DNA from: Trypanosoma brucei
Lineage: Eukaryota
DNA length: 64,000 nucleotides
Direction of reading: 5' to 3'
Assembly (NCBI GenBank): GCA_000002445.1
Contig: CM000208.1
Span: 2,656,001 to 2,720,000 of the forward strand
A model generated the notes under the pieces. That model was not told the origin of the DNA. It ran no database searches and worked only from the letters and a program-made list of their open reading frames with translations. Within the stretch, counting starts at the first letter, position 1. Each line of letters starts with the position of its first letter. Position numbers and translations under genes: made by a program. This document shows positions 15,558-60,142 of this stretch, piece after piece.

Positions 15558-16042
15558 AGATGCCTTAGGGGTAAAGGGTCTTCCTTTGGTCTGAAGTCGT
15601 ACTATTTCGCGCCGCTACCTCGCTTCGCTCCACATACGAGAAAAAGTGGCGGAGAGTTTTTTCCCACCAGTGAAATTACAAACGGTAAGCGATCAGCTAC
15701 GGGGTGACTAACATTTATTTACGGGTGGCTGCCGTGGAGATGCTTATGCATCCTTATTCTCTGGGTGTTCACCTTCCTTTCAGCCCATTTTATGTGGGCG
15801 TGAGCCCTGTGCACCTGCCTGCAGTGGCACCAGTGTCGATTGCGCAAACCATCATCCAACTTACCAGTGAGTTACACTTGGGATGCCACGGCTGGGAAGA
15901 GGTATCAACCCGCAATCATACCTGTGCAAAACGCGAAAGTCAAGTGGTTTTCCTTTTTTTTCTTAAAAAAAAAATGAAAGTCGCAGTAAGCAGGGGGGAG
16001 GGTTTAAACAGCCACTGCGGCTGCACCTTTTGGACGGAACGG

Positions 16043-16399
16043 CTAATTGGCAACATGGACCTCTGCGGACCGAGTGCTCGACATCATCGACAAGTGCTCT
16101 TTGAGCAGCTGAGAACGCTTAATGGTATACGCTCTTTTCGTACAATCCGGACAACAAGGGTTTCCCCTCAGCAGGTACCGCTCGGGACAACAATGAGTAC
16201 AAAATTGGCGACCGCACCAATCACAATTAGTGCTGGGAGTGAAGTAAAAACAGAATGGTTCTTCACACGACGAGCAGAAGCGGCCATCCCTGGGCCGAGC
16301 ACTTTCCGGAGCGGGTACATATGTTATTGGTTCTACTTTATCCTTCACTTCAGGAGGAACCTCTTCGTGTGTGCGAACGTTGCTAAAAATCGTGCCCAT
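16043..16399 (-). CDS. Small (118 aa) Cys-rich zinc-finger protein with predicted N-myristoylation signal (MGTIFS)
   Basis: Starts MGxxxS (NMT consensus). Eight-Cys cross-brace-like cluster CSSC-x14-CDWCGRQFCTHCC-x13-CCPDC resembles FYVE/RING/zinc-ribbon spacing. Orientation matches the minus-strand polycistron. Confidence 0.45.
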   Translation of the reverse strand: MGTIFSNVRTHEEVPPEVKDKVEPITYVPAPESARPRDGRFCSSCEEPFCFYFTPSTNCDWCGRQFCTHCCPERYLLRGNPCCPDCTKRAYTIKRSQLLKEHLSMMSSTRSAEVHVAN

Positions 16400-16533
16400 G
16401 ACAACAACCTAGAGCAGTACACCTACGGCCGCCGGGTCACAACGCCGGCGCAACAAGGGAAAGGCGATAGGAGGAACAAATGGCTCGTTTAGTCTGGTAT
16501 AATTAGAAGCAAAAAAAAAAGCTATGTGGACCT

Positions 16534-27162: not shown

Positions 27163-27344
27163 CTTATCTGCTTAAAGCGAGATCTAGGGAAACTTACCAT
27201 AACACACAACACATTACCCGCTCCCCTTACCCGACGTTTCACAAGTTCATATTAGAGAGTTGGAAGCAAACAGGTCAAAGGATCATGACGACTTCTCTGG
27301 TACCGTGCTTCGCTTTTTATTCGACTACTTAATTTATCTAGCTT

Positions 27345-28073
27345 TCAGTTGTGGACTTGCACCCCCACCACTGCTGCTAATAGTCCCGGGATTGTTATTG
27401 CTCCACTGCTAACGGTGATAATTTTCCCCTTCACAGTCTTTCCGTTTAGTTGTTGAATACACTTTAGAACAGAATCAGGCGACCTGTAGAACACCATTGC
27501 CATGGTCTCATAACGGCTCAGATCGATTAACTCTCCAAACGGCGAAAATAATCGGGCTACCTGATCGTTAGTCATGTTAAAAGGAACGTTGTCTACCAAT
27601 GCTACGCTGGCCCGCGCGGGTGGCGTAAATGGATGGTGTCGAATTGCATTATTCCCTTTGTTACTTGTTCGCTCGCTGCCGCTACCTGGGCCTATCACGC
27701 TTGGGTGGCGTCGCCGGTTCCCTTCGCGTTTTCTTTCATTGAATGTGACGTCCCCTTTATCAGTCGCCCCGAAGGAAAAAATTTCCATTGCAGGATCAAT
27801 TAACATATTCTTTCCCATTTTGCGCATCCTTTGCTTAGCCTTTGGTTCTTCAATCTTTCGTACTAGCCCCGGAACGGCATCTATCCGCGAAGTGGCATCC
27901 CTAGCAGCCTCCTTGTCGCTAAACTTAATGAAAACGCTCGTCGTATTTTCTTTACCTTCTTTGGTTCGTAGAGAACCCACCGCCTCCACGCCAGGCCACT
28001 CGCGGACAACGGCTTCAATACGTTGAAAATCGTGCGTGGGGCAATATGCCAGCAGCACAGAAGGATCCACCAT
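27345..28073 (-). CDS. RNA-binding protein with RRM-like domain(s)
   Basis: RRM-like segments (SVFIKFSDKEAARDA; ALVDNVPFNMTNDQVARLFSPFGELIDLSRYETMAMVFY). The ORF-track start at 28094 reads through a (TA)8 microsatellite (HIYIY), so Met at 28073 is preferred. Confidence 0.55.
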   Translation of the reverse strand: MVDPSVLLAYCPTHDFQRIEAVVREWPGVEAVGSLRTKEGKENTTSVFIKFSDKEAARDATSRIDAVPGLVRKIEEPKAKQRMRKMGKNMLIDPAMEIFSFGATDKGDVTFNERKREGNRRRHPSVIGPGSGSERTSNKGNNAIRHHPFTPPARASVALVDNVPFNMTNDQVARLFSPFGELIDLSRYETMAMVFYRSPDSVLKCIQQLNGKTVKGKIITVSSGAITIPGLLAAVVGVQVHN

Positions 28074-28086
28074 ATATATATATATA
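28071..28086. repeat. (TA)8 microsatellite overlapping the annotated start region of the RRM gene
   Basis: atatatatatatatat is seen directly. It causes the ORF to extend to an upstream ATG (MPHIYIYM). Confidence 0.9.
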
Positions 28087-28094
28087 TGCGGCAC

Positions 28095-31000
28095 TCCCTT
28101 AAGATGCGCAGTACGTGCGTTCGCGGGAAATAATAGGCTAGAATGCTGGTGGATTGTGTGTGCTACTGTCGTGTGTAATTTAAAAAAAAAGTATTAGTTA
28201 TATTACAAGGGGCATAATAACTTTAAAAGTACCAGCGAGGACCTGCTGCGGCTCTAAAAGGGGCAAATACAGACGCAGCACGAAATCAACGGGGCCTCAA
28301 AACCGAACATGGTCGTGCCAAGACACACTCATTCAACTGTATATCGCGGTTTGCGGCATCCATAGTGATGCGGCAAGAGCCCCCGCGCATATGAGAAATG
28401 TCAACTGGACAGAGCTCCGTCCACATAAAAGTTGGAGGGGATCACTGAGAAGCAAAATTGGAAGACAATCAAAAACATACTTAGCAATGGCAAGGACTTT
28501 CAACCGAGTCAGCATCAGTGCATATGCCACAAATGACGTTACGGTGTAAAAATCGATACGCTACACCCATTTTTTTTTTGAGCACGAAACAACGATGCGG
28601 CAGTAGACGTGTCGACAGCCCCCTCAGCGCAGACGCATCGGCTTTACCACGGCCCTCCGCCGTCACGAGTCGCCGGCAACAACACCAGTGGAAACCGCAT
28701 TAACAACACGAATTGGATAAGGAAGACAAAAAGATCGGGGTCTGAGGAGGCAGCAGGAAGCATTTGATGTCCTCCAGCGACCCTGAGAAGCTCCCGACGC
28801 TACAGGGAAAGGAGAATCGCAGTGGCCAGCCACACCGTTTACCAAACGTGAAAGCAGATGCCGGGGCTTTCAGCGCCGAGTTGCGTCAACGCCATCCACA
28901 AGCACCAATCCACTAGGCCTTGAAAGAAGTTTCCACACATGTCGGGGTCACAGTACCCGAAGCACACCAAGAATAAAGCACCAAAGCGGGAGGCGAACGT
29001 AGGAAGTGATAGACTAGGTGAAGTAAACGATCGAAGGCATGTAACGCAAACGCCCACAAAAGCAAACTGCCGGCCTGCGAGGGGATCTGCGCCACACACG
29101 TGCCTACAGACCAGCGCAGTGTCAGATCAGAGACCGGCTTAGGGGCAGTAGAACCCGACCCCTCCACAAGGAAGGAGCTACCGCACATCCGCCGCCACGT
29201 CTTCGGCAACGAGAGGGCTTCGTCCAGGAACTATGGGACGGGTTGCTGTGGCAGAAACGCTAAGGCGGAACAGACGGCTTCTATTGGATGTGAGTGAAAA
29301 CGAAGGGTCCTCATTTGTCTGCTCCACAACCCCTCAGCTGTATGTTATGCTTCGGTCGATGAGAAAGAGACGGGGTGGGCGCGATCCTACTTCAGAGCCA
29401 CCCGCTTCTCAAGGGCAACTGCAGCCCTTTAGGGGGGGGGGCCCAACACTCTACGCCACAGTTCCGACCCATTTTTCTGGTAACAAAGTAAGAGCACTAG
29501 GATCATTGATGTCGAAGGTCAGTATCAGGTTTCGTTCCCGAACAGCCCAATCGCCAGTGCAGGGGCTGACTTACCTTCAAAGATACGACCGTAGGAGAGA
29601 TGCAGTCTGACGCTGCGTTCCAAATCATTCTCCATCAATGACCTAACGGCCGATATATGTCGAAGGCACGGGGTGTCCCCACTTTTAATTCTATCACAAG
29701 ACGATGTGCCGTCAATAGAAAAGGGCCATGTGTTCCGCGTTTAGGTCAACCAAGCGTTGGGGAGGGCTGACCGAGCCGGCGAAGCCCCAGTTTCCATGAG
29801 TAGGTGAAGGATTTTCTCTTATCACCTACACTGACTCCTCAGACACACTGCACTAGCCACCAGACGACCGGAAAAGACACATTCCGCTAAGCTGGTAACC
29901 AAAACTTCCTGATTTAGGCTTTTTCGGACTAGCGCGACCATTTTTTTTTTTTCTAAAGGTGCTTCCTGTGAGCCTTTTAGATTTTCCAACTCTCGAAATC
30001 GACTAATACCAGCCAGTAAACAAGTCCAGAACAAACCTAGATTTGCTGAAGCTCTGCGCGGCACTGTTGTAAGTAAAAAAATGCAGGGGGGGACGCACAC
30101 CCACAACTAAGGGAACGCGGTATATTCGGTGTCTTGGTAGTCTCACATTATGCACTATCCAACTTCCTGGCAGCGCCACGTCGCGAGGACGCCACAGCCA
30201 TCTCTCAGCAAGTTGTCAGGGTTGGCCGTTGGAGTTCAAACCCAGGCACATAGGCGGCTCCTCCCGTAAGGGACCGGTTGACAATCCCCACTTTTCGTAA
30301 TGAAGTTAGAGGTGCTTCGGGTTCTAGTAGATTTATATAAGAAAATTCTTTGTTTTCATTGAGCTCCACAATTCTAAAGTAAAAACTACATCTGAGAAGA
30401 AAAGGTTTATCCTAAAAGTTTTTAGAAGAATATTTTCCCTTCATACCCATGAAAACCTCCTGCCACACGGGAAGGCATCAGTAAATGCATAAAACTTTTG
30501 CCATAGTTGTACGACATTCGGTGCTACCGGTAACTTGGTCGCATATTCCCAGAAACTTCAGCGGAATTAGCATACCACAGCACTGCAACAAGGTACTGCT
30601 CACGTTTGCCTAATGCAGTTGAATTTCCACACCAGAAACCATAGAAGAGAGGGAACAGTAATTGCTTTCGTCCATCACCCGGAGCTGATACTGAACCTGC
30701 GTTGCTCCTCATAAGGAGCCAGAACGAACCGCGTGGGAAACCTTCGAATTCTCACAGGAGACGAACCCAACAAACCGAAGCCACAAACCTATAGTGTGGG
30801 ACGTGCCGTGACGCCACAAGACAGACCATTCTAGGGATTATTTGTGTTGTCCACGTGAACTCAGGAGGGGTCTCGGATTCCAGCCATTTCAGGAGAGTTG
30901 CAGGTACAGGCTTCGCCGTTATCCGCGCCACCCGTGAAATTTCAGTTCATCAACGTGTGTCCGAACACTATGGAAGTCCCCATCCAGCACGACTTAGTTT

Positions 31001-33135
31001 GAGTGTGGGGGCAAAAGCGGTGTCAGAGGAATGACATGCTACACCCAAAGCAACGGTTTTACTCCCCGAGTAGCAAAAGTGTGTTTGAGGGGGTGGTTCA
31101 ACCTCTGGGTCATTCTTGTGTTTTTTCTTATTTGGTCTCATGGTGAAGTTTTGGTGTTTTTGTGGTTGCTTGATCATGTGCGACTACCGCTTATAATCAA
31201 TCAGACATTGTATCGGAAAAATATCACATTTCCCGTACTCTTCCAAAGATTTACTTTCCCTGCCGACGATCCTTGCATTTCATGGAGCCGGCCAGCACAA
31301 TATATCTCAAATGTCTTGGAACGCACGCCAACACCATTCTCTATTTTTTTTCCCACCAAAACGCGGCCTTGCGAGGCCGCTATTTTCCCCAGCCGGCTTT
31401 ATTTACCCTACTCAACTGCGTAGATGGTTGTGTTCTTTCCACGGTAAAAAGCGAGATCGAGCGGGAGAATGCTTTTTGCGCGTGTATACAGGCACGCATT
31501 TGCTTATTTTCTTAATGTTCGGACATATTTTAAATTCAGTGCTAATTAAATATACAACGCTTTCCCCTGTTCATTTTCCCGCTACCCAATGTTCTTGTTT
31601 CGTCTACCCTCGAGGAAAAGGATGTTTCCCCCCTCTAGTCCACACATGTCAAGACCAGGTTCTCCAGCGGGGGGATGTCACCCACGTTCTACCAAGTTCC
31701 TTCAACAATCAAATCAGGATTCTGCTTAACATTTCCGCTGTACACTCGGAGGGGGTGGAACACATCGTTCCGTAGTGCACAGCGCAGGGTTTGGCACAGT
31801 CGGGAGTATTTTTCATCGAAGGTATGGAAAGGCTTCGTGCCTCTGACGTGGTCCCTGAAAGACCATCGCTAACACCACCTCGGTATCAGAGGGGATGTGC
31901 TGAGGTTTAGTTCTTCATCCGTGCAGTGCCGAAAGGCCCCTATGGTCGCACGGTGATTCTCTTCGCAGTAGCGCTCACTACTAGTCGGAGTGTCCCCGAA
32001 CTTCTAGATGTCACCATGGGCCATTCCCCACTTTGTCAGGGTATTGGGGGTCAGCATATTAATACGAAACGTATTAGCGCCCGTTGCAAGAACACTCCGC
32101 TCGCGAAACAGGTGGAGGAATAATGGGTTTAGCACTCCGTCCATCCGCAGACCCCTGTTGGGTTTAATGCGCCACACGCGTCTTGATCAAACGCTTCAGA
32201 GCCCCGAGTGTTTACATCGCAACCTGTTCGTTTTCGGGCGTTTGTGGTGATGGCAAAAATTGAGGTCGTTGCAACCAAGTGCTTCGAAAGGGTCCTGAAC
32301 TTTAGAGTCGCTGCTGGCTGTTGGCGGCGTTCCCAGCGGGTTGGCCGTCGGAAACTCTTTCGCTACCGGCGGGAAAGGTGTAAAAAGAGAAGTTAGAGAG
32401 GAAGTGCGTGGTGCTCGTCCCACGGTCGCTGGCAACCCTGTAAGTTTTGTGAGCTGAGTGCTACTTGATGGTTGCCCGTTTCCTCTGGACCTTTCCTTAC
32501 GCCTCCGTAAAGCATCCGCACATCGGTTGCGTCTCGGTTGTTTTCCCCAGAAGTGGGACGGACCCTCGGGTGTCGTTCGTCTTCGGGAGGCATGCGGGGG
32601 GTGAGCCGCTGGGCGGCTGGTGGGGGGTGTCGGGGTTCGCGGCCGGTGCCTCTCCTCCCGGGCGTGAGGTTCTTGAGTTTTCGACTACGGTTTCGACTTA
32701 CCTCGTTTGTTTGTGCAGCGTCCGGGGTCTGGGGGATCGGGCGTATTTCCGGTTCCGGTGGGTTTCATATCCTTGTAAAGGGAAACGGTATTGGCCTTCC
32801 GTGGGCAGCCCGTGGCCTGAAGCACCGCTTTCCACTATCTGGAGCTGTTGCGCCCCCACCGTGCCACGTCCCTTGACACCTGTTGTGCATGATCGCCAGC
32901 TGCTTTGTTAGGCATTCGTTCTTCTGGCTTGCGGTCCGTTGATCGCCCCCTCTTCACCAGCGTCATGCGTGTCCGCATTTATTTATACGTATATACATAT
33001 GCTTGTGTGTATGGGCTCCTCTTTTTCCCCTCCCCTTTGTGATATGCATGTGTTCGTATGCGTGTGTATGCACCCCTGATGGTATTTCTTTGAGTCTCTC
33101 ACGCACAATTTGAAGCCCAAAGACAGTTATGGTAG
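28095..33135. promoter_or_regulatory. Divergent strand-switch region between the opposed gene blocks; probable bidirectional RNA Pol II transcription initiation zone
   Basis: Minus-strand genes end their run at 28094 and plus-strand genes begin at 33136. The 5 kb between has no ORF over 155 aa. The left flank (28.5–29.4 kb) is A+C-rich on the plus strand, so G+T-rich on the minus strand. The right flank (32.4–32.9 kb) is G-rich on the plus strand. Each GT/G-rich tract therefore lies on the coding strand of the block it faces. Confidence 0.55.
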
Positions 33136-34437
33136 ATGCAACGGTATGGTTCCCTGAAGCCGTCTTTACCGCTGCTGTGCCAGGCCACTTGCGCATGGCA
33201 CGCGGCTCTTCAACACTACTGGCGGGCACTGGTTGAATGTGGATCCTCCCTCACACTGGAGCATTCTCAAAGGATAGGATTGTTATATTTAAAGCATGGT
33301 AAACAAAGCCAACTCTACTACTGGACGAAGCTTTTTAGCTCGGAAGGTGTGCCCGCTTGCGCTCTTTTGTTGAAAGCCCTTGTTAGACAAGATATGTGGC
33401 GGTGCGCTATTGGCCTTTGGGTGTGGAATCCAAGTGGGACTCTCTGTGACTCTCTGGTGGGTGAGTTGATGGCGGAATCAATGTGGAAACAGTCTCTGCA
33501 AGTGGTAAATCACCTTTTGAACATTAGGAAGCTGAGTTGTGGGGATGCGATATCTATCGACGACCACGTTGGAGAACCTGATGGAACCACTGAAAGGTTC
33601 GTAGTCGGTCCTAGCGACACTATGCGGGTGGCATACGACCCAACTTTTGTGCCGGTGGAGGAATGTGGGATGTCCAGTGGATTATGCCACCTCATTACCA
33701 GTTTGTACCCTACTAGGTCTCAGTGGCATCAGGCTGTTTGCCTCCTGGTGCAGCTTAGTGAAAGCGGGACTTCGGCAGACACAGCAAAAGAATTATTGGA
33801 ACTCGCTGCTGCCAGGTCGGCCTATCAAGGGCGACGATTTGAAGATGTATTTAAATGGTCTTTAAGATGTCGATATGTTCATACTTCCTGTTCGCTGCAG
33901 CGCACCCTTTTGCGTGCGGCGATCGCTGTGTCCTGTTGGGAGGAAGCATTTGCAACGTTGGACAAACTGGTTATGCGTCGGGTGGAGGAAGTTCCTGTGA
34001 TTACCCTGTGTGAGCTTTGCAGGGGTTTTATGAAAGAGTACGGGCAGGGAAAACATGTAAACCTATTGGATAAATTTTCTACTATCATAATGAAGTGTTG
34101 GGAGCTTTTCCGTACCGAAATGAAGTTGGAGATTAAGAGTTTTTTTGAGTTTAACGCCGTTGACACAGGTGCGTTGGAGGTTGATTCGTTTAGTAATGAG
34201 TTCGTTGTTTCTGGGGCGGATGGGAAATCACTTTGTGGGAGCCGATACCCCATAAGTGTGACTGACATGGATAAGCTAACTAGTTTGTTGTTAAATAAGG
34301 GACATTGGAAGGCGGCGCTGCACCTGTTAAGTAAGTTTAGTGAATCTGAATGGTCAAACGAGAGAGAAAAAGTGATCGTCAATGCCGCACGAGCCTCGAT
34401 GAGGTGTTGGGAGACTGCACTGTTATTTGTCAGCTAG
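33136..34437 (+). CDS. Hypothetical protein (433 aa), helical-repeat-like
   Basis: First long ORF of the plus-strand block. No family recognised. Confidence 0.5.
   Translation: MQRYGSLKPSLPLLCQATCAWHAALQHYWRALVECGSSLTLEHSQRIGLLYLKHGKQSQLYYWTKLFSSEGVPACALLLKALVRQDMWRCAIGLWVWNPSGTLCDSLVGELMAESMWKQSLQVVNHLLNIRKLSCGDAISIDDHVGEPDGTTERFVVGPSDTMRVAYDPTFVPVEECGMSSGLCHLITSLYPTRSQWHQAVCLLVQLSESGTSADTAKELLELAAARSAYQGRRFEDVFKWSLRCRYVHTSCSLQRTLLRAAIAVSCWEEAFATLDKLVMRRVEEVPVITLCELCRGFMKEYGQGKHVNLLDKFSTIIMKCWELFRTEMKLEIKSFFEFNAVDTGALEVDSFSNEFVVSGADGKSLCGSRYPISVTDMDKLTSLLLNKGHWKAALHLLSKFSESEWSNEREKVIVNAARASMRCWETALLFVS

Positions 34438-34535: not shown

Positions 34536-34540
<5 letters not shown>

Positions 34541-34568
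<28 letters not shown>
34541..34568. repeat. (TA)14 microsatellite in the 3' flank of the 33136–34437 gene
   Basis: tatatatatatatatatatatatatata is seen directly. Confidence 0.9.
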
Positions 34569-34574
<6 letters not shown>

Positions 34575-35566
34575 TTTACATGCATACATATTTTCAAATT
34601 CGCTCCCTTTCGATACGACATCATGAATATTTCCGCGGCGTTTCATCCAGATGTTGAAGACATTTTCAAAACTTTTACCATTTTCCTTCGTGTACTTCTA
34701 TCAATGCGATCTAATTTAACTGTCTATTGGTTTTCCCTCTATGCTAGCATACCGAGGAAGGCATCCGGTGAGTGAAACAGCTAAATAATTCTAAGACAAC
34801 AAGTGTTATATTCTTTAAGGGGGTGGAGAACGTTACTCAAGCAAATTTAATGTCTCACTACCTTTTGGTCACTTTCACGTTCAACTGTCCTGAGATACGT
34901 ATTTTGGGCCCCATCAAGGAACAAACAATTGAAAAGCTGAATGATGTGATCCCCAACGCTACCACGACGTCGAGGAGCAACAGAACTGCATTGCCCAAGT
35001 TTGAGTACCTTCCCAACCCCAACCACTGGTACATTAAGCTTGACAGACAGTTTTGCGACGAGGATGGAAAGTCCCACCTGATGGTCCTTTTGTTGGATGC
35101 ACTTTCAGAGGAAGGGTCGTGGCGATTGGTTTCGTCATTTGTTACGAAGGAACCCAGTGGAACTGGTTCTAAGGAAGGCACAGAAACGCATACGCTGTTT
35201 CTAAATAAACTTCTTGCTGAGGATAGCTGATATTTTGCTCCTTTCGCTCCCCTATTTTTTACTCAAAGAAAATACGAGTCAAAAATGATGAAAGGGGAAA
35301 GGAAAAGCAACAAAGAGATTGAAGAAAAGTCAATGTATTTATACATGTTATGTGGGATATTATATGGTAGGGAAGTGATGTATTGAGGACGCTTTTTTTT
35401 TCTTTGTTTTAATGAGGAGCTAAAAAGATAGAGAGAAAAGAAAAAAAGGAGGAATTGCCTTCGTTAGCTCAATTGGGCATGATTTATGTTCCCATTTAGT
35501 TGACATAAATTTGCACCTTATTTCTTACCACCGGGAGGCGAGTGAGGATGCGAGGGACATGAATGG

Positions 35567-35646: not shown

Positions 35647-36912
35647 GTGGGTAAAAACATTAATAAAAAAATGAGCGAAGAGACACAACCCCAATCTACA
35701 GAACCTAAAGGTTCTGGAAGTGGTGTCATCATTGATGATGGTACAATGGATGATCTGATCGATAAACTCAGGATTTTACGATATGAAACCGAATTTTGTC
35801 CCCGTGTCAAGCCCCCATTCAAACCCTTGAGCAAGTATTACTTTTCGGGACCCTCTACCATTGATAACCCTAACGCCCAGTTCTACTATTTCACGTCTCT
35901 GTGCTCCTGGTTAATGGGTTTATCCGGTCGTAATTTTGAACCTCCGGGGCAGTTTGACGATCCGAATGCTACGGCTACCAATATATTAATGGAGTTACGT
36001 GGGATGAACATAACAGCACCTAACCTTGCGCCTAATCGGTTGCGCCAAGCAAGTGGTGAAGCAGTTCTGACTGTGCTTTCGCTTCTCGCTGATCACGCTA
36101 TCCTCAGTAAAGGTTTAAGCATTCGTGCTATTGACTACAGTAATATTGAAAAGTTCGATGAGTTGGAAGGGGCCACGGATGGTGACGAGAATTATGGAAT
36201 TGGTGATGAGGTGGAGGATAATGTGATGATCGATAGCGACGATGACGATGAGTTATACGTTCGTGCTGTTGGGGGGAAGTCAGGGAAAGAAGACACAGGG
36301 ATACCTGTGGAGTCAGAAATTAATGCAGATGAATGGAATCTGGAAGTGGAGCGCGTTGGACCTTTGCTTCATGTAAAGTCAGAGGCGATACAAGATTGGC
36401 GCTCTCGCATTGAAAACGCCGCAATTCTTTTGAAAGCTGTTGAGAAAATGTATCCAGAGGTAAGGCAAATGCTTCAGAGGATGAGTGATGATTTAGAGAA
36501 ATCCAAAGACCGCATTCAGAAACGTGAGCAGACGCTCGCTCAGCAGTTTTCCGATCAAGTTGAGGATTACCGTGTGAAGCTGCGGGAGCTGAACTCTTCT
36601 CAAGATGCCGCAAATATAGCAAGTCAGAGCGTTCAACAACTTTCAGCTGAGTTAAATCAAGTAAGTGGATTGCTGGACCAGGTAAAGCGGGATATCGAAG
36701 AAAGAGAGGCGAAACTATCAGATACATCTCCATTGATGCAAGTAAAGGATGCTGCTGTGAAGGTAAGGGCCGAAATCAAGCAAATGTCTTTAAGAATTGG
36801 TATTTTGCAACACACAGTCCTCCACTACGTAATGAAACAAACAAAGGCAAAACGAGAGGGTACAGCCAATACCTCTGGTGGTGATGAGTGGGAAGAAACG
36901 GATTATATGTAA
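35647..36912 (+). CDS. IFT57: Intraflagellar transport protein 57 (IFT57/HIPPI)
   Basis: N-terminal block MDDLIDKLRILRYETEF...FKPLSKYYF...QFYYFTSLCSWLMGLSGRNFEPPGQFDDPNATATNILMELR aligns closely with human IFT57 (MEDLVEKLKLLRYEDEF...PSRHYF...QFYMFCTLAAWLINKAGRPFEQPQEYDDPNATISNILSELR). DEWNLEVERVGPLLHV matches AEWSLEVERVLPQLKV. The C-terminus is coiled-coil. The true start may be Met at 35671. Confidence 0.85.
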   Translation: MGKNINKKMSEETQPQSTEPKGSGSGVIIDDGTMDDLIDKLRILRYETEFCPRVKPPFKPLSKYYFSGPSTIDNPNAQFYYFTSLCSWLMGLSGRNFEPPGQFDDPNATATNILMELRGMNITAPNLAPNRLRQASGEAVLTVLSLLADHAILSKGLSIRAIDYSNIEKFDELEGATDGDENYGIGDEVEDNVMIDSDDDDELYVRAVGGKSGKEDTGIPVESEINADEWNLEVERVGPLLHVKSEAIQDWRSRIENAAILLKAVEKMYPEVRQMLQRMSDDLEKSKDRIQKREQTLAQQFSDQVEDYRVKLRELNSSQDAANIASQSVQQLSAELNQVSGLLDQVKRDIEEREAKLSDTSPLMQVKDAAVKVRAEIKQMSLRIGILQHTVLHYVMKQTKAKREGTANTSGGDEWEETDYM

Positions 36913-37031
36913 TATACATACATATTATTGCTACCTGCTTCGAGCGGTGACGAACTGACATCAAGTTTATATGATTGGTCGTTTTGGTTGGATAGAACCG
37001 TTCCCATTTGTGGGCAAGACATTGCTTCTGC

Positions 37032-37051
37032 GGGGGGGGGGGGTGGGTGGC
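37032..37051. repeat. G11 homopolymer followed by TGGGTGGCGG (G-rich, potential G-quadruplex) in intergenic region
   Basis: cgggggggggggtgggtggcgg is seen directly. Similar G10 runs occur at 29432–29441 and 44721–44730. Confidence 0.85.
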
Positions 37052-39152
37052 GGTCAACAAACCTGGGAGGCTATTAGAGATTTGAACAAAGACACAAGGA
37101 ATAATCTGAAACGTGAGAATGTGTCCGTCATAATCATTTGTCGCTCGGGGACGCCTACCCTTTTTATGTTATTTCTTTTTCTCTGTAGCTTTTGCTTTGG
37201 TGGAAACAAAAACGCTAACACAAGATTAAGTATAAATGTACTTTTTTATCAGCTTGTAGACGTCGAATATTTCCTTGTTTTTGCTGATTTCTGTTATGGG
37301 TGCCACTATGCATCAACAACTGAGAAGGAGAGGATGCTGGACATAGTGCTGGCGGAGGAGGGCAAATACGGCAGCGACGAAAGACAGCCATATTATCGTT
37401 GTTGGGCATTTTCATTCTCCCTTGAAGCGTGGATGAGATGGTTGACGTGGCGTGTGCCGACGGTTGAAGGGAAAGTACGCTTTGGCGCATCATAAGCGAC
37501 CACAATTTGTAGGGCATGGGTCCACTTGCGTGGTGCCCCGATGAGCTTTTGCTTTATGCGTGTGAGTTTGGTGGTGCGCTTGTTGCTTGTAGATATAGCG
37601 TTTCTGTATCGGTCGAGTATTTGTGTTTGTGCGTGTAGGGGGTGTGGAGGGTGTCAGCTCCTGGCTGAAGCCAATGCTCTAAGCAACCGAACGCATGCGC
37701 ACACGCATATACACACTCAGGGATCCCTTAAAAAAAGGTATGCAGTCCGAAGGCATTGATATAGTAGACGGTGGACAGGGGGTTGGTAAACTGCAGTTCA
37801 CAAAGAAAACAACGGGGAAAATGCTTTTTATCTTGCGTATGATTCTAGAACGTGTTATTTTTCAGTGGACAAGCTGACGTAGGATCTCGGGCAGCATGTT
37901 AACGCCCGCGGGTAAATGCAATGGACAAGCGAGGAAAGTGACGATTCAAGAATGCAAGGGGATTCTGCTTAATACCCAACGGTGTCCGCGCCGGAGACTA
38001 CTTGTTTCTGACAGAGGTGCTGCTCCTTTCCTACTACAACACCAAACATCCTTAAACTCTTCAGGAAAATGCACTATTTTTGCGTGAGGCACTTATAGCC
38101 ACTTTCATAGTACATCGGTGAATGAGTGACTACATATATCTTTCGATAGTGGTGGGAAGGATTTTCTAAGCCTGTTTTTTTATTTTCGGAACTTTCATAG
38201 TTTTTCTGTTCGATCGCGACCTTTCAAGCTGGGTCAAAAACTTTACGAGTTTTTTTTCTTTTTCGTAAGAGTGACCTGTTTTTAGCGAGGAGTAAAAACG
38301 GTCATTGCGATCGTGGTTTGTGTGATATAGGAAACCCAAGACCACTGCGATATTTTAGTCACCTTTGCCGTGTTAGCGCTTCGACGGTGTGGTGCATCAC
38401 TGCCGTTGCGGCAGGTGTGAGGGTATGATTTTTTTACCTTTCAAACGATGTATGTGCGTCCTTGGTATTATGCCGCCCTTCCTACCATTTTGGTTTGGTT
38501 TCCCGTCCGTTACCGAGTAGGCGCCGGTGGTAGGTTAATGTGGTGGCAAGGAAAGACTACCCGTTACAAAAGTGTGAGTTGGTGAAGGGTAATAACACCC
38601 TGTTAAATCCATCGATGCACTCATTTCCATTAGGTGTGGTCTTTTAGAGGGGTAGGGAGAGCCTTTAAATGTTTTATTTGCTTATTTTTGTTCGTGCTCC
38701 GGCAACCAGTTTTCCGCATGTTCCTTCTGGAGGTGTTTACACGGGCCGGTAATCATGTAGCCTCTTGCGTCTGGAAAACATTTGCATGTTTGGGATTGGT
38801 TCCTGTTTTGTTTTGTTTTGTTTTGAGCTTCTTGGTCGTCCGCATTGTTGTTTGGGGTACCCGGGTGCTGTAAGTGGAGGAGTTTTGGTATTCCTTCCGT
38901 GTATGATGGGTTATATTTACCTGGGGTTTTGTGGGTGTACAGCAGTATCCCATGTCGGTGCACTGGGTATCACTGCGGTTATGCACGCCAGGGAAAGCCT
39001 TTTTCTTCTTCAGCTGGATATTTTCATAATGTGTTGCTGCGCATAAGGACTGAGCTTGGAGGAAACAAATGTTGGGTATCTGTGTATTGTGAACTTTTTT
39101 GTCTTCTGCTGTGTTCATACATCACCTGTGGTGTTCCATTAGGAGGGGTGTG

Positions 39153-44412: not shown

Positions 44413-45791
44413 TATGATTGTGCCAGCCGAGGAAGAATGGTCTCCCTGTCACACGAGGGTCAATGTTACATAATAGTGACCAAAAGGTAGATCCTCCGTT
44501 GGGTTCGCGCACGCCTGCGCCCGTATTACGGCCACTGTGTGTGTGTGCGCTGCCAACGCTAAGAGAGAATTGAGGACACAAGTAACGTTAACGTTAGAGG
44601 CAGGGCAGGTGCGTGTAGGTATAAGGTCCAAATAGTTGCAGGTGACAACGTGCGTGCTTTGGTAAGTATACTGCCTTCTTTCCCCCTCACTTTGTTTCTT
44701 TCTCCAGCACTGCTTTGAGAGGGGGGGGGGCGAGGGCACGTGGGATCTGCTGGCCACGACAGTGGGGCCAGTGATGAAGTTGGAGATGGAGGCAAAATTT
44801 GAGTGATTTTACCTAGTGGGCGTTGAGCATAGACAAATGAGCAGTTAAATGCTGTCGTTAATTTCATACTGCTTAGAATAGAACAATTGTATTGGCACCC
44901 CCCTCTAATGTGAACAATCGCGGCGTTGTGGAAGTGACGACGTATGGGAGTCGTGCCTATCCCCAAGGCAGCTTTCCCCCGCTCCTTTGCTCAACTGGGG
45001 GTCACAAGCACTGTCGGTGCTGTTTGAGGGTAGCAATTCTCCGTTTACTTGAGCATTTTTTCCCCTCTCCGCTGTGCACGGGTAAATAGGGGATGGGAGG
45101 TGGTGTAAAAGAAAAGAAAGTGCGTGCGTCCCGATGCATCTACAATGAACACGGAGGTATAGGAGGCAGTGACTGTGTTTTGGAAGGTACAGTAACAAAG
45201 AGCCAAAACATAAGCAATCAATTGAAAAAGGATGCGTTGCCCTGGGGGAAACGGGTCGTGTGTCGGTTCGTCATAGAGTACACACTTTATCCTTCTTTTA
45301 ATCGTTATCTTCTGTAGTGCAATCGTAGGGTGTGAGGTTGGAAGGGAGGAGGGATGAAAGCTAGGTAAAGTTCCCGGAACTACCGACGTGTGAGCACAGA
45401 GAGAGCGTTCTACGAGACATAGAACGAGCTGAAAGCACGATAAGTTTTGTTTGAGATTTTGTTAGTGCTCGCTAACGCTTCCGAACCGCGAGTAGTGTGG
45501 GTTCATCACGTTTGCCTGAGCTTTCCCCGTTCTCAGGGCTGTGGAGGGGCATCTTCCGTGTCGTTTACATTTTTTTCTTTCGTGAGTGCGTGTGTCTGCA
45601 CTTTTTTTAAACCGACTTCTGCTCCGTTTACTCCATTCGTGAAAAAGTCCTTGCCTGGTGCTCCGGGGCGTTTTCCCCTCGTATATCACCTTCCGGCCTC
45701 GAATTGGCTACCGGTGGTGCACGCTGAAGGATTTGTCGTTATTGCCGATCCATGCCCTTTTTTTTTCGTGAGGTCAAAAAAATAGTACGTT

Positions 45792-51334: not shown

Positions 51335-51739
51335 GTGTGGCGGTGGTGGAGTCGTGTTGTGCGAATACACTGCGTTCACGTTTGTGTCCTTTAACTTTCA
51401 CCCTAAAAAATTGTTTTGGAACTTCATTCGAGTGTGGGTGGGCCACGGTGGAGAGGGAAGAACGCAAAGGAGAACAACGGCTGTGTGTAGATGATATTGT
51501 CCCAGCCTTTCCTGCTCGCGTATACGATCTAATAACGCCCATACTTTCGTGTAAATGTGAGTGGTTATATTTTCACTTTTCCATTTTTTCCTATGTTCTT
51601 GTGAGGCAATGATTTTGTTCTTTACTGGTTCTTCTTTGTGGCATGACTTATTCTTCTTTCCTTCCAACCTCATTCCTACCGTTGCGTTTAATTTATGCCT
51701 CTCACGTGAAAGATCTAAAGCTCTTCACGTATCACTAAA

Positions 51740-52318
51740 ATGCCCGCTGCCACAAAGAAGGCTGTCGAGAAGAAGGCGAAGAAGGTGAGCCGCAAGAGCC
51801 CCGAATACTCGACGGTGCGCAAGAGTTGCAAGCCCGGGACCATTGCCATCATTCTTGCTGGTCGTTTCCGTGGCCGCCGTGCTGTCATTCTGAAGCAGCT
51901 GCCCAAGAATGGGCCACTGGTGATCTCTGGGCCGATGAAGTACAGCGGTGTTCCTATTCGTCGCATTGACTCGCGCTACATTATTGCGACGTCGACGAGG
52001 GTGGACCTCACGGGTGTCGACACGAGCGCCATCACCCCTGAAATCTTCAAGCGTGAGAAGAAGGAGAAGCGGGTGAAGTCTGAGGGCGAGTTCATGGGTG
52101 ACAAGGACAAGAAGAAGGCGGAGAGCAAGGCGAAGAAGACTTCCAAGGCCGCACCGAAGGGAACCGTCAGCGATGAGCGTGCCCAGCTGCAGAATGCGAT
52201 CGACACTGCGCTTATTCAGGCGATCAAGAAGGATCCACTGGGTAAGGAGATGGCCGGGTACTTGCACTCCGTCTTCACTATCAAGCCGGGTGATGCTCCG
52301 CACCGCCTGAAGTGGTAA
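51740..52318 (+). CDS. RPL6: 60S ribosomal protein L6 (eL6)
   Basis: Lys/Ala-rich N-terminus and KOW-like core (GTIAIILAGRFRGRRAVILKQL). C-terminal YLHSVFTIKPGDAPHRLKW matches eL6 C-terminal YLRSVFALTNGIYPHKLVF. Confidence 0.9.
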   Translation: MPAATKKAVEKKAKKVSRKSPEYSTVRKSCKPGTIAIILAGRFRGRRAVILKQLPKNGPLVISGPMKYSGVPIRRIDSRYIIATSTRVDLTGVDTSAITPEIFKREKKEKRVKSEGEFMGDKDKKKAESKAKKTSKAAPKGTVSDERAQLQNAIDTALIQAIKKDPLGKEMAGYLHSVFTIKPGDAPHRLKW

Positions 52319-52675
52319 TGTGATGGGGAGTTGAGCTTTTCGATCAGCACTACGGTGCACTCATTTTTGTTTTTGTTTAATTTTTTTTAAAAAAAACTGT
52401 ACTCTTAAACAAGGGGAAAGAATTGTGGTAAAAGCTGTGTGTGCCCCAGGTTCTTTCGTGTGGCACGTTACTCTTTTGGGTGCACCTTGACACGTTCAAA
52501 ATTTGTACCTGTGCCGAAAGGTAGCTTATACTTCTGTCTTCTCTTCCCTTACCATCTTTTTTTTCCCGTTCGCTTTCGTTACACCTTGCGATGGCAACGG
52601 GAGGAGGTACATAGACTCCCCCAACGGCGCTGCGGTTTTTTTGGTAGTATTTGCGGTGTGTTTTGCGCATGAGCC

Positions 52676-58101: not shown

Positions 58102-58933
58102 CGCTACATGTGCTTTGCCAAAGGAAGGGAGGGAGTAACTGCTCTCAGACCTCCATTTTCCCCTTGTTCTTTTTTTTTCCGTGTGTACGTTATCTGTGGT
58201 CCTTGGAGTCTAGTACTATTCCATATTGTGTCTGTGTAAGTGTGTAGTGGGGTATCGTACACGTTATATTCTATATATCGCCCTTCATAACATTTTTAGG
58301 CACTTATTGTATATATTGCATTGTGTTTGTACGGTGCCGCTTTCTGCATTTCACTTACTGGCAGTTACACTGGCCAGCTTTGCGCTGAAGGCACCCCGAC
58401 TCACCAGACATTCAATCCACAAGTCTCCGTCGGGCCTGCCAATTCTGCGGTACCTTCTGAACCTCTGCTGTGTTAACTTAAGCGTGGTGGCGGTCAAATC
58501 TACTTATCCCTTTACATCGGTTGGGCAAACATCGCGTTCACAGAAAGAATGAAAGTTTCTACTGGTAAGTGTGGTGTCATCAGCAGGGCCCTGCTCAGTG
58601 GAAGCGGTGTAAGGTCCCCACCGAAAGGAAGCTCGTAGATGTGCATGGAGACCCCTGGCGGCACCGAGAAAAAAAATGTACTTTCTATGCCGAGCGCGTG
58701 CTTTGCAGAGCGTCCGTTTTTTAAAGATTTGAACACGGCAGGCACCGCTTCAACTCTATCAAGTTAACGTGGAGTAGGTATTCTTTCGGCAACCGTACGC
58801 TTCAGCGTGTCCCCTTTAAGAACAGACTGCATATACGGCGTTGTCGGTTGGGCCAGTGGCAAATTTTATCCCTGCAGCCCTATCTCGCAACTCCTAGAAC
58901 CCCTATTTGTTACATTGCATTAAATATGTAGCC

Positions 58934-59031
58934 TTAACATGACGAGTGAGGAGCGCTATATCTTCTTCACCAAGTGCAGAATTAACCGTCTGAGTACTTT
59001 ATCACTTTGAAGTGAAGCGCAACCTGATTTA
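58934..59031 (+). ncRNA. Box C/D snoRNA (copy 1 of type A)
   Basis: C box AUGACGA (58939–58945), internal D' CUGA (ccgtCTGAgt), C'-like UGAAGUGA and terminal D box CUGA (59024–59027). Length ~95 nt. Confidence 0.6.
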
Positions 59032-59107
59032 CCGGTTACATGCTGTTTCCTCCCTTTGTTTCCACTTAAGCCTCCTCTCTCGTATACCCGGAAGTTTGTT
59101 ACGTAGC

Positions 59108-59179
59108 CGTTGCTCAGGGAGTTCTGTACGCCGCTGAGTGGTATTGCTCGCTTAGTGGAGCGATTTACTCCCCAGATTT
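59108..59179 (+). ncRNA. Probable single-hairpin H/ACA-like snoRNA with 3' AGA box (copy 1)
   Basis: Stem between GGGAGT and ACTCCC flanks an internal loop. An AGA trinucleotide lies 3 nt from the predicted 3' end, the trypanosomatid H/ACA-like architecture. Confidence 0.4.
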
Positions 59180-59192
59180 GTTATGTGAGGAG

Positions 59193-59270
59193 TGATCGCT
59201 GATGAAGTTGATATGGTCCGTGTTTCAGATCGCTGAATTGACGCACAATAGCATATCTTCTGAGTTCTGC
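59193..59270 (+). ncRNA. Box C/D snoRNA (copy 1 of type B)
   Basis: C box UGAUGA (gcTGATGAag), D' CUGA (cgCTGAatt) and terminal D box CUGA (cttCTGAgtt). Length ~78 nt. Confidence 0.6.
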
Positions 59271-59408
59271 ACTGCCCCCCTGTACTATCGCTGTTTTGAA
59301 TGCTGTTGTCAGGTGTTGTTAGTTGGGCCAGTGGCAATTTTTATTCATTCGGCCCTCTCCCACAACTCCTAGAACCCCTATTTGTTACATTGCATTAAAT
59401 ATGTAGCC

Positions 59409-59506
59409 TTAATATGACGAGTGAGGAGCGCTATATCTTCTCCACCAAGTGCAGAATTAACCGTCTGAGTACTTTATCACTTTGAAGTGAAGCGCAACCT
59501 GATTTA
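59409..59506 (+). ncRNA. Box C/D snoRNA (copy 2 of type A)
   Basis: Same elements as 58934–59031 shifted by 475 bp. C box at 59414–59420, D box at 59499–59502. Confidence 0.6.
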
Positions 59507-59582
59507 CCGGTTACATGCTGTTTCCTCCCTTTGTTTCCACTTAAGCCTCCTCTCTCGTATACCCGGAAGTTTGTTACGTAGC

Positions 59583-59654
59583 CGTTGCTCAGGGAGTTCT
59601 GTACGCCGCTGAGTGGTATTGCTCGCTTAGTGGAGCGATTTACTCCCCAGATTT
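59583..59654 (+). ncRNA. Probable H/ACA-like (AGA-box) snoRNA (copy 2)
   Basis: Same hairpin as copy 1. AGA at 59649–59651. Confidence 0.4.
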
Positions 59655-59667
59655 GTTATGTGAGGAG

Positions 59668-59745
59668 TGATCGCTGATGAAGTTGATATGGTCCGTGTTT
59701 CAGATCGCTGAATTGACGCACAATAGCATATCTTCTGAGTTCTGC
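59668..59745 (+). ncRNA. Box C/D snoRNA (copy 2 of type B)
   Basis: UGAUGA at 59675–59680; terminal CUGA at 59735–59738. Confidence 0.6.
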
Positions 59746-60129: not shown

Positions 60130-60142
60130 GTTATGTGAGGAG

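What the first reader, a model, noticed from the sequence alone, without database searches (positions are those of the whole stretch)
28095..33135. Divergent strand-switch region with mirrored GT/G-rich tracts: probable bidirectional Pol II start zone
All 16 ORFs left of 28.1 kb are on the minus strand and all ORFs right of 33.1 kb are on the plus strand. The 5-kb gap lacks long ORFs. Its left flank is G+T-rich on the minus strand, and its right flank (32.4–32.9 kb) is strongly G-rich on the plus strand (e.g. ggggggtgagccgctgggcggctggtggggggtgtcggggttcgcgg). The enrichment is therefore on the coding strand of each diverging unit. In kinetoplastids such regions are the sites of Pol II initiation, marked by histone variants/acetylation rather than by classical promoters. 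GT-rich elements have been reported to drive initiation and variant-histone deposition.
Basis: partly seen in the sequence, partly recalled or inferred. Interest (0 to 1): 0.55.

Follow-up and report, generated by a model that had tools for sequence, protein, structure and literature searches.

The report
Known trypanosome divergent transcription start region
This is the already catalogued spot on Trypanosoma brucei chromosome 10 where two multi-gene transcription units start back to back; about 62% of the supposedly empty 5-kb gap is covered by a published 3.1-kb, probably non-coding transcript, so the finding is right in kind but ordinary.

Summary
The window is T. brucei TREU927 chromosome 10, v4 positions 2,656,001-2,720,000. 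The gap at 28,074-33,135 lies between RBP23 (Tb927.10.11270, minus strand) and the conserved 433-aa gene that starts the rightward unit (plus strand).

The anatomy needs correcting.
- The gap is not empty. The published trans-spliced, polyadenylated transcript Tb10.NT.128 runs on the minus strand from 31,434 to 28,286. It has an AG acceptor and a polypyrimidine tract at exactly the predicted site.
- Leftward Pol II must therefore start right of about 31.48 kb. Both start sites probably fall in the roughly 1.5 kb between 31.5 and 33.0 kb. The base-skew switch (31.08-31.75 kb) lies at and just left of that zone's left edge.
- The right tract (32,384-33,124) is strongly G/T-rich and A-poor. The left tract (28,573-29,314) is T-rich and A-poor but not G-rich, and it lies inside NT.128.
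- G+T-richness alone is matched by ordinary intergenic regions. Sense-strand A depletion is the distinctive, mirrored signal.

Orthologous gaps in four other Trypanosoma species measure only 505-741 bp and show the same mirrored composition. Interest is low.

The parts
27345..28073 (-). RBP23 coding sequence (Tb927.10.11270 = Tb10.26.0740), the first annotated gene of the leftward transcription unit
   Evidence: RRM_1 Pfam match. Published RBP23 qPCR primers match exactly at 27478-27497 (-) and 27229-27248 (+). The protein is 100% identical to the TREU927 protein.
28074..33135 (.).
   Evidence: (no Pfam match in six frames).
28182..28190 (-). T9 polypyrimidine run on the minus strand, followed by AG dinucleotides. 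Probable trans-splicing signal of RBP23, 96 nt downstream of the NT.128 poly(A) site.
   Evidence: Sequence. The role is inferred.
28286..31434 (-). Tb10.NT.128: published trans-spliced, polyadenylated transcript of 3,148 nt at 1.59 RNAs per cell. The longest ATG ORF is 91 aa, so it is probably non-coding.
   Evidence: Kolev 2010 Table S7, Tb927_10_v4 2687434->2684286, minus strand. The coordinate offset of 2,656,000 is validated because an AG sits immediately upstream of the 5' ends of NT.127, NT.128 and NT.129.
28573..29314 (-). Left A-poor, T-rich tract. Sense-strand A is 0.13-0.16 and G+T 0.58-0.59. It lies inside the 3' third of NT.128.
29432..29441 (+). G10 run on the plus strand, antisense to NT.128. 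It is length-polymorphic (G9 in T. b. equiperdum). Its role is unexplained.
   Evidence: G10 is the top coding-strand 10-mer in Wedel 2017 Dataset EV1.
31435..31475 (-). AG acceptor (31436-31435) and polypyrimidine tract of the NT.128 trans-splice site
   Evidence: The minus strand reads ...ttctcccgctcgatctcgctttttaccgtggaaag|AACAC.
31078..31747 (.). Polarity switch of base skew. The cumulative T-A minimum is at 31,078 and the cumulative G-C minimum at 31,747.
31476..33015 (.). Inferred zone that probably holds both Pol II start regions: upstream of the NT.128 splice signal on the minus strand and upstream of the first plus-strand splice signal. About 1.5 kb.
   Evidence: Inferred. Start sites were not mapped here.
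32384..33124 (+). Right A-poor, G/T-rich tract. A is 0.11-0.14, G up to 0.42 per 100 bp and G+T up to 0.69. Best candidate for the dispersed GT-rich promoter of the rightward unit.
   Evidence: The promoter role is inferred from Wedel 2017.
32585..32635 (+). Potential G-quadruplex sequence (G4Hunter peak 2.2). One of four in the 64 kb, all on the plus strand.
32468..32911 (+). Tb10.26.0700, an annotated 147-aa 'hypothetical protein'. Probably an artefact of stop-codon-poor (A-poor) sequence.
   Evidence: Listed as producing no detectable transcript in Kolev Table S2. No Pfam match and no similarity in other trypanosomatid loci. A second ORF overlaps it in another frame. 11% of shuffles of the tract give a stop-free run of at least 148 codons.
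33016..33038 (+). Polypyrimidine tract (ctcctctttttcccctccccttt) followed by AGs. Probable trans-splicing signal of the first rightward gene.
   Evidence: Sequence. The role is inferred.
33136..34437 (+). First gene of the rightward unit: a conserved 433-aa kinetoplastid protein, Tb10.26.0690 / Tb927.10.11290 by gene order
   Evidence: alignment from residue 1 in five Trypanosoma species. Searches give the numbering context. The identifier is inferred from gene order.

Best explanation
The region is the divergent strand-switch region of T. brucei chromosome 10 between RBP23 and Tb927.10.11290. Here Pol II starts two polycistronic units in opposite directions.

Shown:
- The two units are head to head.
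- The locus is in the published catalogue of Pol II unit starts.
- No Pol I or Pol III gene, repeat or protein-coding relic lies in the gap.
- A 3.1-kb trans-spliced, polyadenylated minus-strand RNA (Tb10.NT.128) covers 28,286-31,434.

Inferred:
- NT.128 has to be spliced out of a longer precursor, so leftward initiation lies right of about 31.48 kb.
- Rightward initiation lies left of the polypyrimidine tract at 33.02 kb.
- Both start regions therefore probably sit within about 1.5 kb (31.5-33.0 kb), and the base skew changes sign at and just left of that zone's left edge.
- Rightward initiation is most likely driven in a dispersed, orientation-dependent way by the 740-bp G/T-rich, A-poor tract at 32.38-33.12 kb. 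This is the type of GT-rich element shown by Wedel et al. 2017 to drive directional transcription and H2A.Z deposition.
- Leftward initiation comes from compositionally neutral DNA at 31.5-32.4 kb, presumably through a sequence-specific or chromatin-defined promoter.
- The left A-poor tract is part of the transcribed start-region body, inside the 3' third of NT.128. At most it adds internal initiation ahead of RBP23.
For: Organism and locus:
- Rfam finds the snoRNA families TB10Cs2H1 and TB10Cs2H2.
- The RBP23 protein is 100% identical to the TREU927 protein.
- The gap is 98.9% identical to T. b. equiperdum chromosome 10.
- An offset of 2,656,000 to Tb927_10_v4 fits Tb10.26.0700 exactly and puts an AG before three published transcript 5' ends.

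Pol II start region:
- Kolev Table S14 lists both units as 'Divergent'.
- RBP23's identity is proven by primer matches.
- RBP23 is described as the first gene of its unit.

NT.128: Table S7, described by the authors as trans-spliced and polyadenylated.

Composition:
- The skew switch is at 31,078-31,747.
- The right tract is extreme in A depletion and in G.
- The 31.5-32.2 kb stretch is compositionally neutral.

Mechanistic background:
- GT-rich coding-strand elements drive directional transcription.
- Two oppositely oriented core promoters lie within 5-10 kb divergent regions.

Comparative:
- The same RBP23 | 433-aa-gene junction exists in T. grayi (505 bp), T. cruzi (592 bp), T. rangeli (691 bp), T. 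melophagium (741 bp) and Leptomonas (1,484 bp).
- The four Trypanosoma gaps have a sense-strand A-poor, GT-rich third on each side. Three of them (T. grayi, T. cruzi, T. rangeli) also have a GC-rich centre (GC 0.62-0.73); in T. melophagium it is 0.53.
Against: - No start site, H2A.Z, H4K10ac or Pol II ChIP profile for this locus could be read here. The 31.5-33.0 kb placement is an inference.
- Kolev's data are from procyclic T. b. rhodesiense mapped on TREU927, and transcript ends were defined computationally.
- Start regions in T. brucei are broad, and every 1.8-kb fragment of two tested regions had promoter activity. Additional initiation inside NT.128, for example at the left A-poor tract, is therefore not excluded.
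- The published coding-strand 10-mers are not denser in the gap than in ordinary spacers.
- The G10 run at 29,432 is on the 'wrong' strand for the leftward unit.
- Wedel's tested chromosome 10 region is a different locus.
Confidence: 0.85

Rival explanations
1. The whole 5-kb gap is an untranscribed spacer, and the two mirrored GT-rich tracts at its ends are the two promoters, each just upstream of its first gene.
For: - The two most A-poor, longest tracts of the window lie about 0.5 kb upstream of RBP23's start codon and directly upstream of the 433-aa gene's, with mirrored polarity.
- GT-rich elements act directionally.
- Orthologous short gaps show the same mirrored composition.
Against: - Tb10.NT.128 is a spliced, polyadenylated minus-strand RNA whose 5' end is at 31,434. 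That is 2.1 kb upstream of the left tract, with a proper AG and polypyrimidine signal.
- The skew switch is at 31.1-31.7 kb rather than mid-gap.
- The left tract is not G-rich.
Confidence: 0.1
2. The mirrored composition is not a promoter signal. It is a by-product of RNA-processing signals (polypyrimidine tracts, UTR-like sequence) and of transcription-coupled mutational skew. Initiation is set by chromatin or by short sequence-specific core promoters. This partly overlaps the best explanation.
For: - Intra-unit intergenic regions reach equal or higher sense G+T (0.64-0.66) and share the A-poor character.
- Wedel's 10-mers are strand-biased across the whole 64 kb and are not concentrated in the gap.
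- The left tract sits inside NT.128, 290-1,030 nt upstream of its poly(A) site at 28,286 and of RBP23's splice signal.
- The SPARC study found no shared motif under Pol II peaks, which suggests heterogeneous promoters.
Against: - The two tracts are about 740 bp, against 355-530 bp for all other A-poor runs, and they are the global extremes of the window.
- Synthetic GT-rich DNA is sufficient for directional initiation and H2A.Z deposition in T. brucei.
Confidence: 0.3
3. The region is mainly, or additionally, a DNA replication origin or ORC1/CDC6 binding site.
For: - Transcription start sites are reported to be ORC1 binding sites in T. brucei (abstract of PMC6344857; Tiengwe 2012 as cited).
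- The A-rich-left, T-rich-right arrangement and a nearby G4 resemble the origin topology described by stranded SNS-seq (abstract).
Against: - Origins mapped by stranded SNS-seq are not enriched at strand-switch regions.
- Only a subset of such regions fire as origins (my own knowledge of Tiengwe 2012).
- No locus-specific replication data could be read here.
Confidence: 0.15
4. The gap hides protein-coding genes (for example Tb10.26.0700 or the 154-aa ORF) or the relic of a mobile element.
For: - T. b. equiperdum and GeneDB v4 annotate the 147-aa ORF.
- The gap is 7-10 times longer than in other Trypanosoma species.
Against: - No transcript was detected for Tb10.26.0700.
- There is no Pfam match in any of six frames at E<=0.1. 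The single reported match, DUF7797, has E=0.54.
- There is no tblastx or blastn similarity to eight related loci or to the rest of the window, and no repeats.
- The ORF length is expected from the A-poor composition in 11% of shuffles.
Confidence: 0.03

Closest known systems
T. brucei Pol II transcription start regions at divergent strand-switch regions (Siegel 2009; Kolev 2010; Wedel 2017)
   Same: - Head-to-head polycistronic units in a gap of about 5 kb. The literature gives 5-10 kb as typical.
- Catalogued from 5'-triphosphate RNA-seq for this very locus.
- Coding-strand G>C and T>A skew.
   Different: Nothing essential. The locus-specific detail is a 3.1-kb processed, probably non-coding RNA between the start zone and the first conserved leftward gene.
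GT-rich dispersed promoters (Wedel et al. 2017, EMBO J)
   Same: - The right tract is G/T-rich on the coding strand and carries G6 runs.
- It lies at the 5' edge of the rightward unit.
- Strand bias of the published 10-mers inside the gap is 10 plus against 3 minus.
   Different: - It is much less pure than the synthetic GT_210 and GT_416 elements printed (by eye; their composition was not computed here). G+T is 0.60-0.69, with 25-29% C.
- The 10-mer density is not above that of ordinary spacers.
- The left tract is not G-rich and is not upstream of the first leftward RNA.
- This locus has not been tested in a reporter; Wedel's regA is at 0.80 Mb.
Sequence-specific 75-bp core promoters in T. 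brucei divergent regions (Cordon-Obras et al. 2022, Cell Rep)
   Same: Two oppositely oriented, unidirectional promoters inside one divergent region. This fits a compositionally neutral leftward start zone at 31.5-32.4 kb.
   Different: The paper is not held, so its motifs could not be scanned. The SPARC study did not find those motifs under other Pol II peaks.
Orthologous RBP23 | Tb927.10.11290 strand-switch regions in T. cruzi, T. rangeli, T. grayi, T. melophagium and Leptomonas
   Same: - Same flanking genes in the same head-to-head order.
- In the four Trypanosoma gaps, a mirrored sense-strand A-poor, GT-rich third on each side; three of them also have a GC-rich centre.
- T. cruzi divergent regions carry H2B.V at their edges.
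   Different: - They measure 505-741 bp (1,484 bp in Leptomonas) against 5,062 bp.
- There is no primary sequence similarity.
- There is no room for a 3-kb transcript.
Leishmania major chromosome 1 strand-switch region (Martinez-Calvillo 2003) and mammalian CpG-island divergent promoters
   Same: Divergent Pol II initiation without a TATA box or classical promoter, with G/C-tract or GC-skewed DNA on the non-template strand (my own knowledge).
   Different: A different organism and scale. This is a resemblance only and was not tested here.

Membership tests
Kinetoplastid divergent strand-switch region / Pol II transcription start region | The source organism is a kinetoplastid with polycistronic gene clusters | tested here: met
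   Trypanosomatid snoRNA families TB10Cs2H1 and TB10Cs2H2. The RBP23 protein is identical to the T. b. brucei TREU927 protein. 98.9% DNA identity to T. b. equiperdum chromosome 10.
Kinetoplastid divergent strand-switch region / Pol II transcription start region | Two gene clusters head to head, with every real gene on the minus strand on one side and on the plus strand on the other | tested here: met
   The opposite-strand ORFs were shown to be spurious. Kolev's units span the whole window on each side.
Kinetoplastid divergent strand-switch region / Pol II transcription start region | Primary (5'-triphosphate) transcripts or a catalogued Pol II unit start at the locus | tested here: met
   Taken from the literature, not from raw data. 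Kolev 2010 Table S14 lists both units as 'Divergent'. The link to the window rests on primer matches and coordinate validation.
Kinetoplastid divergent strand-switch region / Pol II transcription start region | Enrichment of H2A.Z, H2B.V, H4K10ac, H3K4me3 and BDF3 | not testable with these tools
   No ChIP-seq tracks are available here.
Kinetoplastid divergent strand-switch region / Pol II transcription start region | The boundary is not caused by a tRNA, snRNA or rRNA gene | tested here: met
   No tRNA. No Rfam match in 28.0-33.2 kb, even at E<=1.
GT-rich dispersed promoter (Wedel 2017) | G/T-rich sequence on the coding strand at the 5' end of the start region | tested here: inconclusive
   Right tract: met (G+T 0.60-0.69, G up to 0.42). 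Left tract: G+T 0.58-0.59, not G-rich, and 2.1-2.9 kb downstream of the first leftward RNA's 5' end.
GT-rich dispersed promoter (Wedel 2017) | Over-representation of the published coding-strand 10-mers (Dataset EV1) | tested here: not met
   There are 13 hits in the 5-kb gap (10 plus, 3 minus), a density equal to or below intra-unit spacers. For comparison, 11-12 hits fall in single 2-kb bins at 0-2, 10-12 and 38-40 kb.
GT-rich dispersed promoter (Wedel 2017) | Orientation-dependent reporter activity and induced H2A.Z deposition | not testable with these tools
   This needs an experiment. Wedel's tested chromosome 10 region is another locus.
Sequence-specific core promoter (Cordon-Obras 2022) | Presence of the functional motifs of the 75-bp promoter under a Pol II peak | not tested
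   The paper is not held, so the motifs are unavailable.
Protein-coding gene (Tb10.26.0700, 32468-32911) | A transcript, homologues or a domain | tested here: not met
   No detectable transcript. No Pfam match. No similarity in related loci. The ORF length is compatible with the composition.
Replication origin / ORC1-CDC6 site | ORC1/CDC6 binding or an MFA-seq/SNS-seq peak | not testable with these tools
   Only general statements were found.

The most novel reading that the evidence does not exclude
The RBP23 | Tb927.10.11290 start region is ancient and compact: 0.5-0.75 kb in T. cruzi, T. rangeli, T. grayi and T. melophagium. In the T. brucei lineage it has acquired about 3.1 kb of unique DNA. 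This DNA is transcribed, trans-spliced and polyadenylated as a probably non-coding 'leader' RNA (Tb10.NT.128), placed between the start zone and the first conserved gene.

That RNA, or the 740-bp A-poor tract in its 3' third, could have a lineage-specific role. Possibilities are a second internal promoter, a buffer that keeps the H2A.Z start domain off conserved genes, or a regulatory long non-coding RNA. T. vivax may show an independent or shared expansion, since no RBP23 lies within 7.5 kb there.
Probability: 0.15. Interest if true: 0.4.

Novelty: already known. Interest (0 to 1): 0.15.

Why it matters
It matters little as a discovery. This strand-switch region has been in the published list of T. 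brucei Pol II unit starts since 2010, and the GT-rich-promoter idea dates from 2017.

Three practical points come out of the check.
- ORF-free gaps in trypanosome genomes are not necessarily untranscribed. Here 62% of the gap is a processed RNA, which moves the likely start zone by 2-3 kb.
- Sense-strand A depletion discriminates the start-region flanks better than G+T content does.
- A-poor sequence generates spurious long ORFs that have been annotated as genes.

The seven- to ten-fold size difference from the orthologous gaps in other Trypanosoma species is a modest comparative observation that may be worth a genome-wide look.

Tried and rejected
- Hidden genes or mobile-element relics in the gap: six-frame Pfam, Pfam on the four longest ORFs, and tblastx/blastn against eight related loci and the rest of the window. 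Nothing found.
- Non-coding RNA families: Rfam at gathering threshold and at E<=1, and tRNA scan. Nothing in the gap.
- Repeats and palindromes: only short matches at chance level.
- Scoring with Wedel's 157 coding-strand 10-mers: the strand bias is right but there is no local enrichment, so they do not work as a locus-specific test.
- Mirrored G-quadruplex potential: present only on the right side.
- Within-species divergence against T. b. equiperdum as a footprint: 2-7 differences per 500 bp over most of the gap, too few to show constraint.
- Exact-protein look-ups for the window's own RBP23 and 433-aa proteins, and for TREU927 RBP23: not on record.
- RBP23 orthologues in T. vivax and T. congolense: none returned, so the size of the gap in the other salivarian species could not be measured.
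- Cordon-Obras 2022 and Siegel 2009: not held.
- The opposite-strand ORF 15704-16492 as a refuting gene model: rejected.
- The T. theileri orthologous gap contains an assembly gap, so its length is unusable.

Full report
**Identity of the window.** Rfam finds the trypanosomatid H/ACA snoRNA families TB10Cs2H1 and TB10Cs2H2 at 58.8-60.3 kb. The RRM protein encoded at 27,345-28,073 (minus strand) is 100% identical to a T. b. brucei TREU927 protein. The published qPCR primers for RBP23 (Tb927.10.11270 = Tb10.26.0740) match exactly at 27,478-27,497 and 27,229-27,248. IFT57/55 at 35,647-36,912 is Tb927.10.11310. The annotated ORF Tb10.26.0700 (Tb927_10_v4 2,688,468-2,688,911) has exactly the length and position of the ORF at 32,468-32,911, giving an offset of 2,656,000. 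With that offset, the 5' ends of three published transcripts (Tb10.NT.127.128 and .129) each fall immediately after an AG preceded by a polypyrimidine tract. The window is therefore chromosome 10, v4 positions 2,656,001-2,720,000.

**Check of the observation: what holds.**
- ORF polarity is as described. Left of 28.1 kb there are 12 non-nested ORFs of at least 150 aa on the minus strand. Right of 33.1 kb there are 14 on the plus strand.
- Two opposite-strand ORFs do not stand up. ORF 51,725-52,360 (minus) overlaps the real RPL6 gene on the plus strand. ORF 15,704-16,492 (plus) has one relative in 1.8 billion representatives, and that relative is frame-shifted after an A-run.
- The gap 28,074-33,135 has no ORF above 154 aa, no Pfam match in six frames, no tRNA, no Rfam match and no repeats.
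- The quoted G-rich string is at 32,596-32,642.

**Check of the observation: composition.**
- The right flank is truly extreme. G is 0.33-0.39 and A 0.09-0.12.
- The left flank is T-rich and A-poor on the minus strand (G+T 0.58-0.59) but is not G-rich.
- Against the empirical background of the same 64 kb, sense-strand G+T of 0.59-0.62 is only the 95th-99th percentile. Ordinary intergenic spacers exceed it, reaching 0.64-0.66.
- What is unique is A depletion. The lowest plus-strand A of any 500-bp window is at 32,453-32,952 (0.108), and the lowest plus-strand T is at 28,719-29,218 (0.130).
- The two A-poor runs are 28,573-29,314 and 32,384-33,124. At about 740 bp each they are the longest in the window; all others are 355-530 bp.
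- Only the right side has a potential G-quadruplex.
- The 157 coding-strand 10-mers of Wedel et al. are strongly strand-biased over the whole window but are not concentrated in the gap.

**What is in the gap.** Kolev et al. 2010 Table S7 lists Tb10.NT.128 at 2,687,434 -> 2,684,286, minus strand, 3,148 nt, at 1.59 RNAs per cell. The authors describe the transcripts of that table as trans-spliced and polyadenylated. In window coordinates it runs from 31,434 to 28,286. The minus strand just upstream reads ttctcccgctcgatctcgctttttaccgtggaaag|AACAC, a textbook polypyrimidine tract plus AG acceptor. Its 3' end lies 96 nt upstream of the T9 tract that precedes RBP23. The longest ATG ORF is 91 aa, and the transcript is absent from the tables of conserved or peptide-supported novel ORFs. 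About 62% of the 'empty' gap is thus a processed, probably non-coding RNA of the leftward unit. The annotated 147-aa ORF on the right tract (Tb10.26.0700) produced no detectable transcript. It is overlapped by a 112-aa ORF in another frame. Its length is expected from the stop-poor composition in 11% of shuffles, against 1.6% for average composition.

**Where transcription starts.** This locus is already in the published catalogue. Table S14 of Kolev et al., derived from 5'-triphosphate RNA-seq, lists 'Tb10.26.0740 -> Tb10.329.0030, minus, Divergent' and 'Tb10.26.0690 -> Tb10.389.1460, plus, Divergent'. A 2022 paper calls RBP23 the first gene of its unit. NT.128 must be spliced from a longer precursor, so leftward initiation lies right of about 31.48 kb. 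Rightward initiation lies left of the polypyrimidine tract at 33,016-33,038. Both start regions therefore probably fall within about 1.5 kb. The cumulative T-A curve has its local minimum at 31,078 and the cumulative G-C curve its global minimum at 31,747. The polarity switch thus sits at the 5' end of NT.128, not at the middle of the ORF gap. The 31.5-32.2 kb stretch is compositionally neutral, so nothing GT-rich on the minus strand precedes the first leftward RNA. The right tract remains a good candidate for a dispersed GT-rich promoter of the kind shown to act directionally and to attract H2A.Z. Start regions are broad, and all fragments of two tested regions had activity. Extra initiation inside NT.128, for instance at the left A-poor tract, cannot be excluded.

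**Comparative evidence.** The junction RBP23 | 433-aa gene | 126-aa gene | IFT57 is conserved. The distance between the two start codons is:
- 505 bp in T. grayi;
- 592 bp in T. cruzi;
- 691 bp in T. rangeli;
- 741 bp in T. melophagium;
- 1,484 bp in Leptomonas pyrrhocoris;
- 5,062 bp in T. brucei.

The four short Trypanosoma gaps show the mirrored pattern very clearly. Sense-strand A is 0.07-0.20 and G+T 0.61-0.79 in the outer thirds. The centre is GC-rich (0.62-0.73) in T. grayi, T. cruzi and T. rangeli and 0.53 in T. melophagium. There is no primary sequence similarity to T. brucei. With NT.128 set aside, the T. brucei start zone (about 1.5 kb) is within about 2-3 fold of these. In T. vivax no RBP23 or mS41 lies within 7.5 kb upstream of the orthologue, and no T. 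vivax or T. congolense RBP23 was retrieved. T. b. equiperdum is 98.9% identical across the gap, with differences spread evenly.

**Rivals.**
- A pure by-product reading (processing signals plus mutational skew) is partly compatible with my explanation and cannot be excluded for the left tract.
- A replication-origin or ORC1 role is possible but unsupported at this locus. The recent SNS-seq study finds no enrichment of origins at strand-switch regions.
- Hidden genes or mobile-element relics are excluded as far as sequence searches can reach.

**Verdict.** The useful additions are a corrected anatomy, a better compositional descriptor (sense-strand A depletion) and the size contrast with the orthologous gaps.

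Noticed in passing
window 58836-60326 (+): snoRNA cluster TB10Cs2: H/ACA snoRNAs TB10Cs2H1 and TB10Cs2H2 alternating in tandem units of 475 bp, with three H2 copies and four H1 copies.
   Followed up: no
window 37032-37043 (+), 37189-39027 (+), 44721-44730 (+): A G12 run lies inside the 174-aa ORF 36971-37495, 146 nt upstream of the splice acceptor of the published novel transcript Tb10.NT.129. A G10 run lies at 44.7 kb. Both are coding-strand G runs and potential quadruplexes well inside the rightward unit.
   Followed up: partly
window 29432-29441 (+): The only G10 run of the gap is on the strand antisense to NT.128 and the leftward unit, and it is G9 in T. b. equiperdum. G10 is the most coding-strand-biased 10-mer in published start regions, so its strand here is unexpected.
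   Followed up: partly
window 15704-16492 (+): A 262-aa ORF on the 'wrong' strand inside the leftward unit. Its only relative is a 119-aa protein that is frame-shifted after the A10 run, so it is a chance ORF.
   Followed up: yes
L001 10001-11044 versus window 33136-34437: The T. b. equiperdum annotation starts the first rightward gene at a downstream ATG (347 aa). The full 433-aa N-terminus aligns from residue 1 in T. cruzi, T. grayi, T. melophagium, T. theileri and T. rangeli, so this is probably a mis-annotated start.
   Followed up: partly
L003 1-7500 (T. vivax): Upstream of the T. vivax orthologue of the 433-aa gene there is no RBP23 or mS41 within 7.5 kb. Instead there is a GC-rich stretch (GC up to 0.68) carrying three annotated plus-strand ORFs with no Pfam domains on record. 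This could be an expansion or a synteny break.
   Followed up: partly
window 28072-28087 and 34540-34575: An (AT)8 repeat overlaps the RBP23 start codon, and an (AT)18 repeat lies downstream of the 433-aa gene. Indels against T. b. equiperdum cluster in the two 500-bp bins that contain these repeats; inside the gap they fall in A/T homopolymer runs.
   Followed up: no
window 1259-1747 (-): The published novel transcript Tb10.NT.127 (488 nt, 3.34 RNAs per cell) maps here, with a (TG)n tract and an AG acceptor upstream.
   Followed up: no
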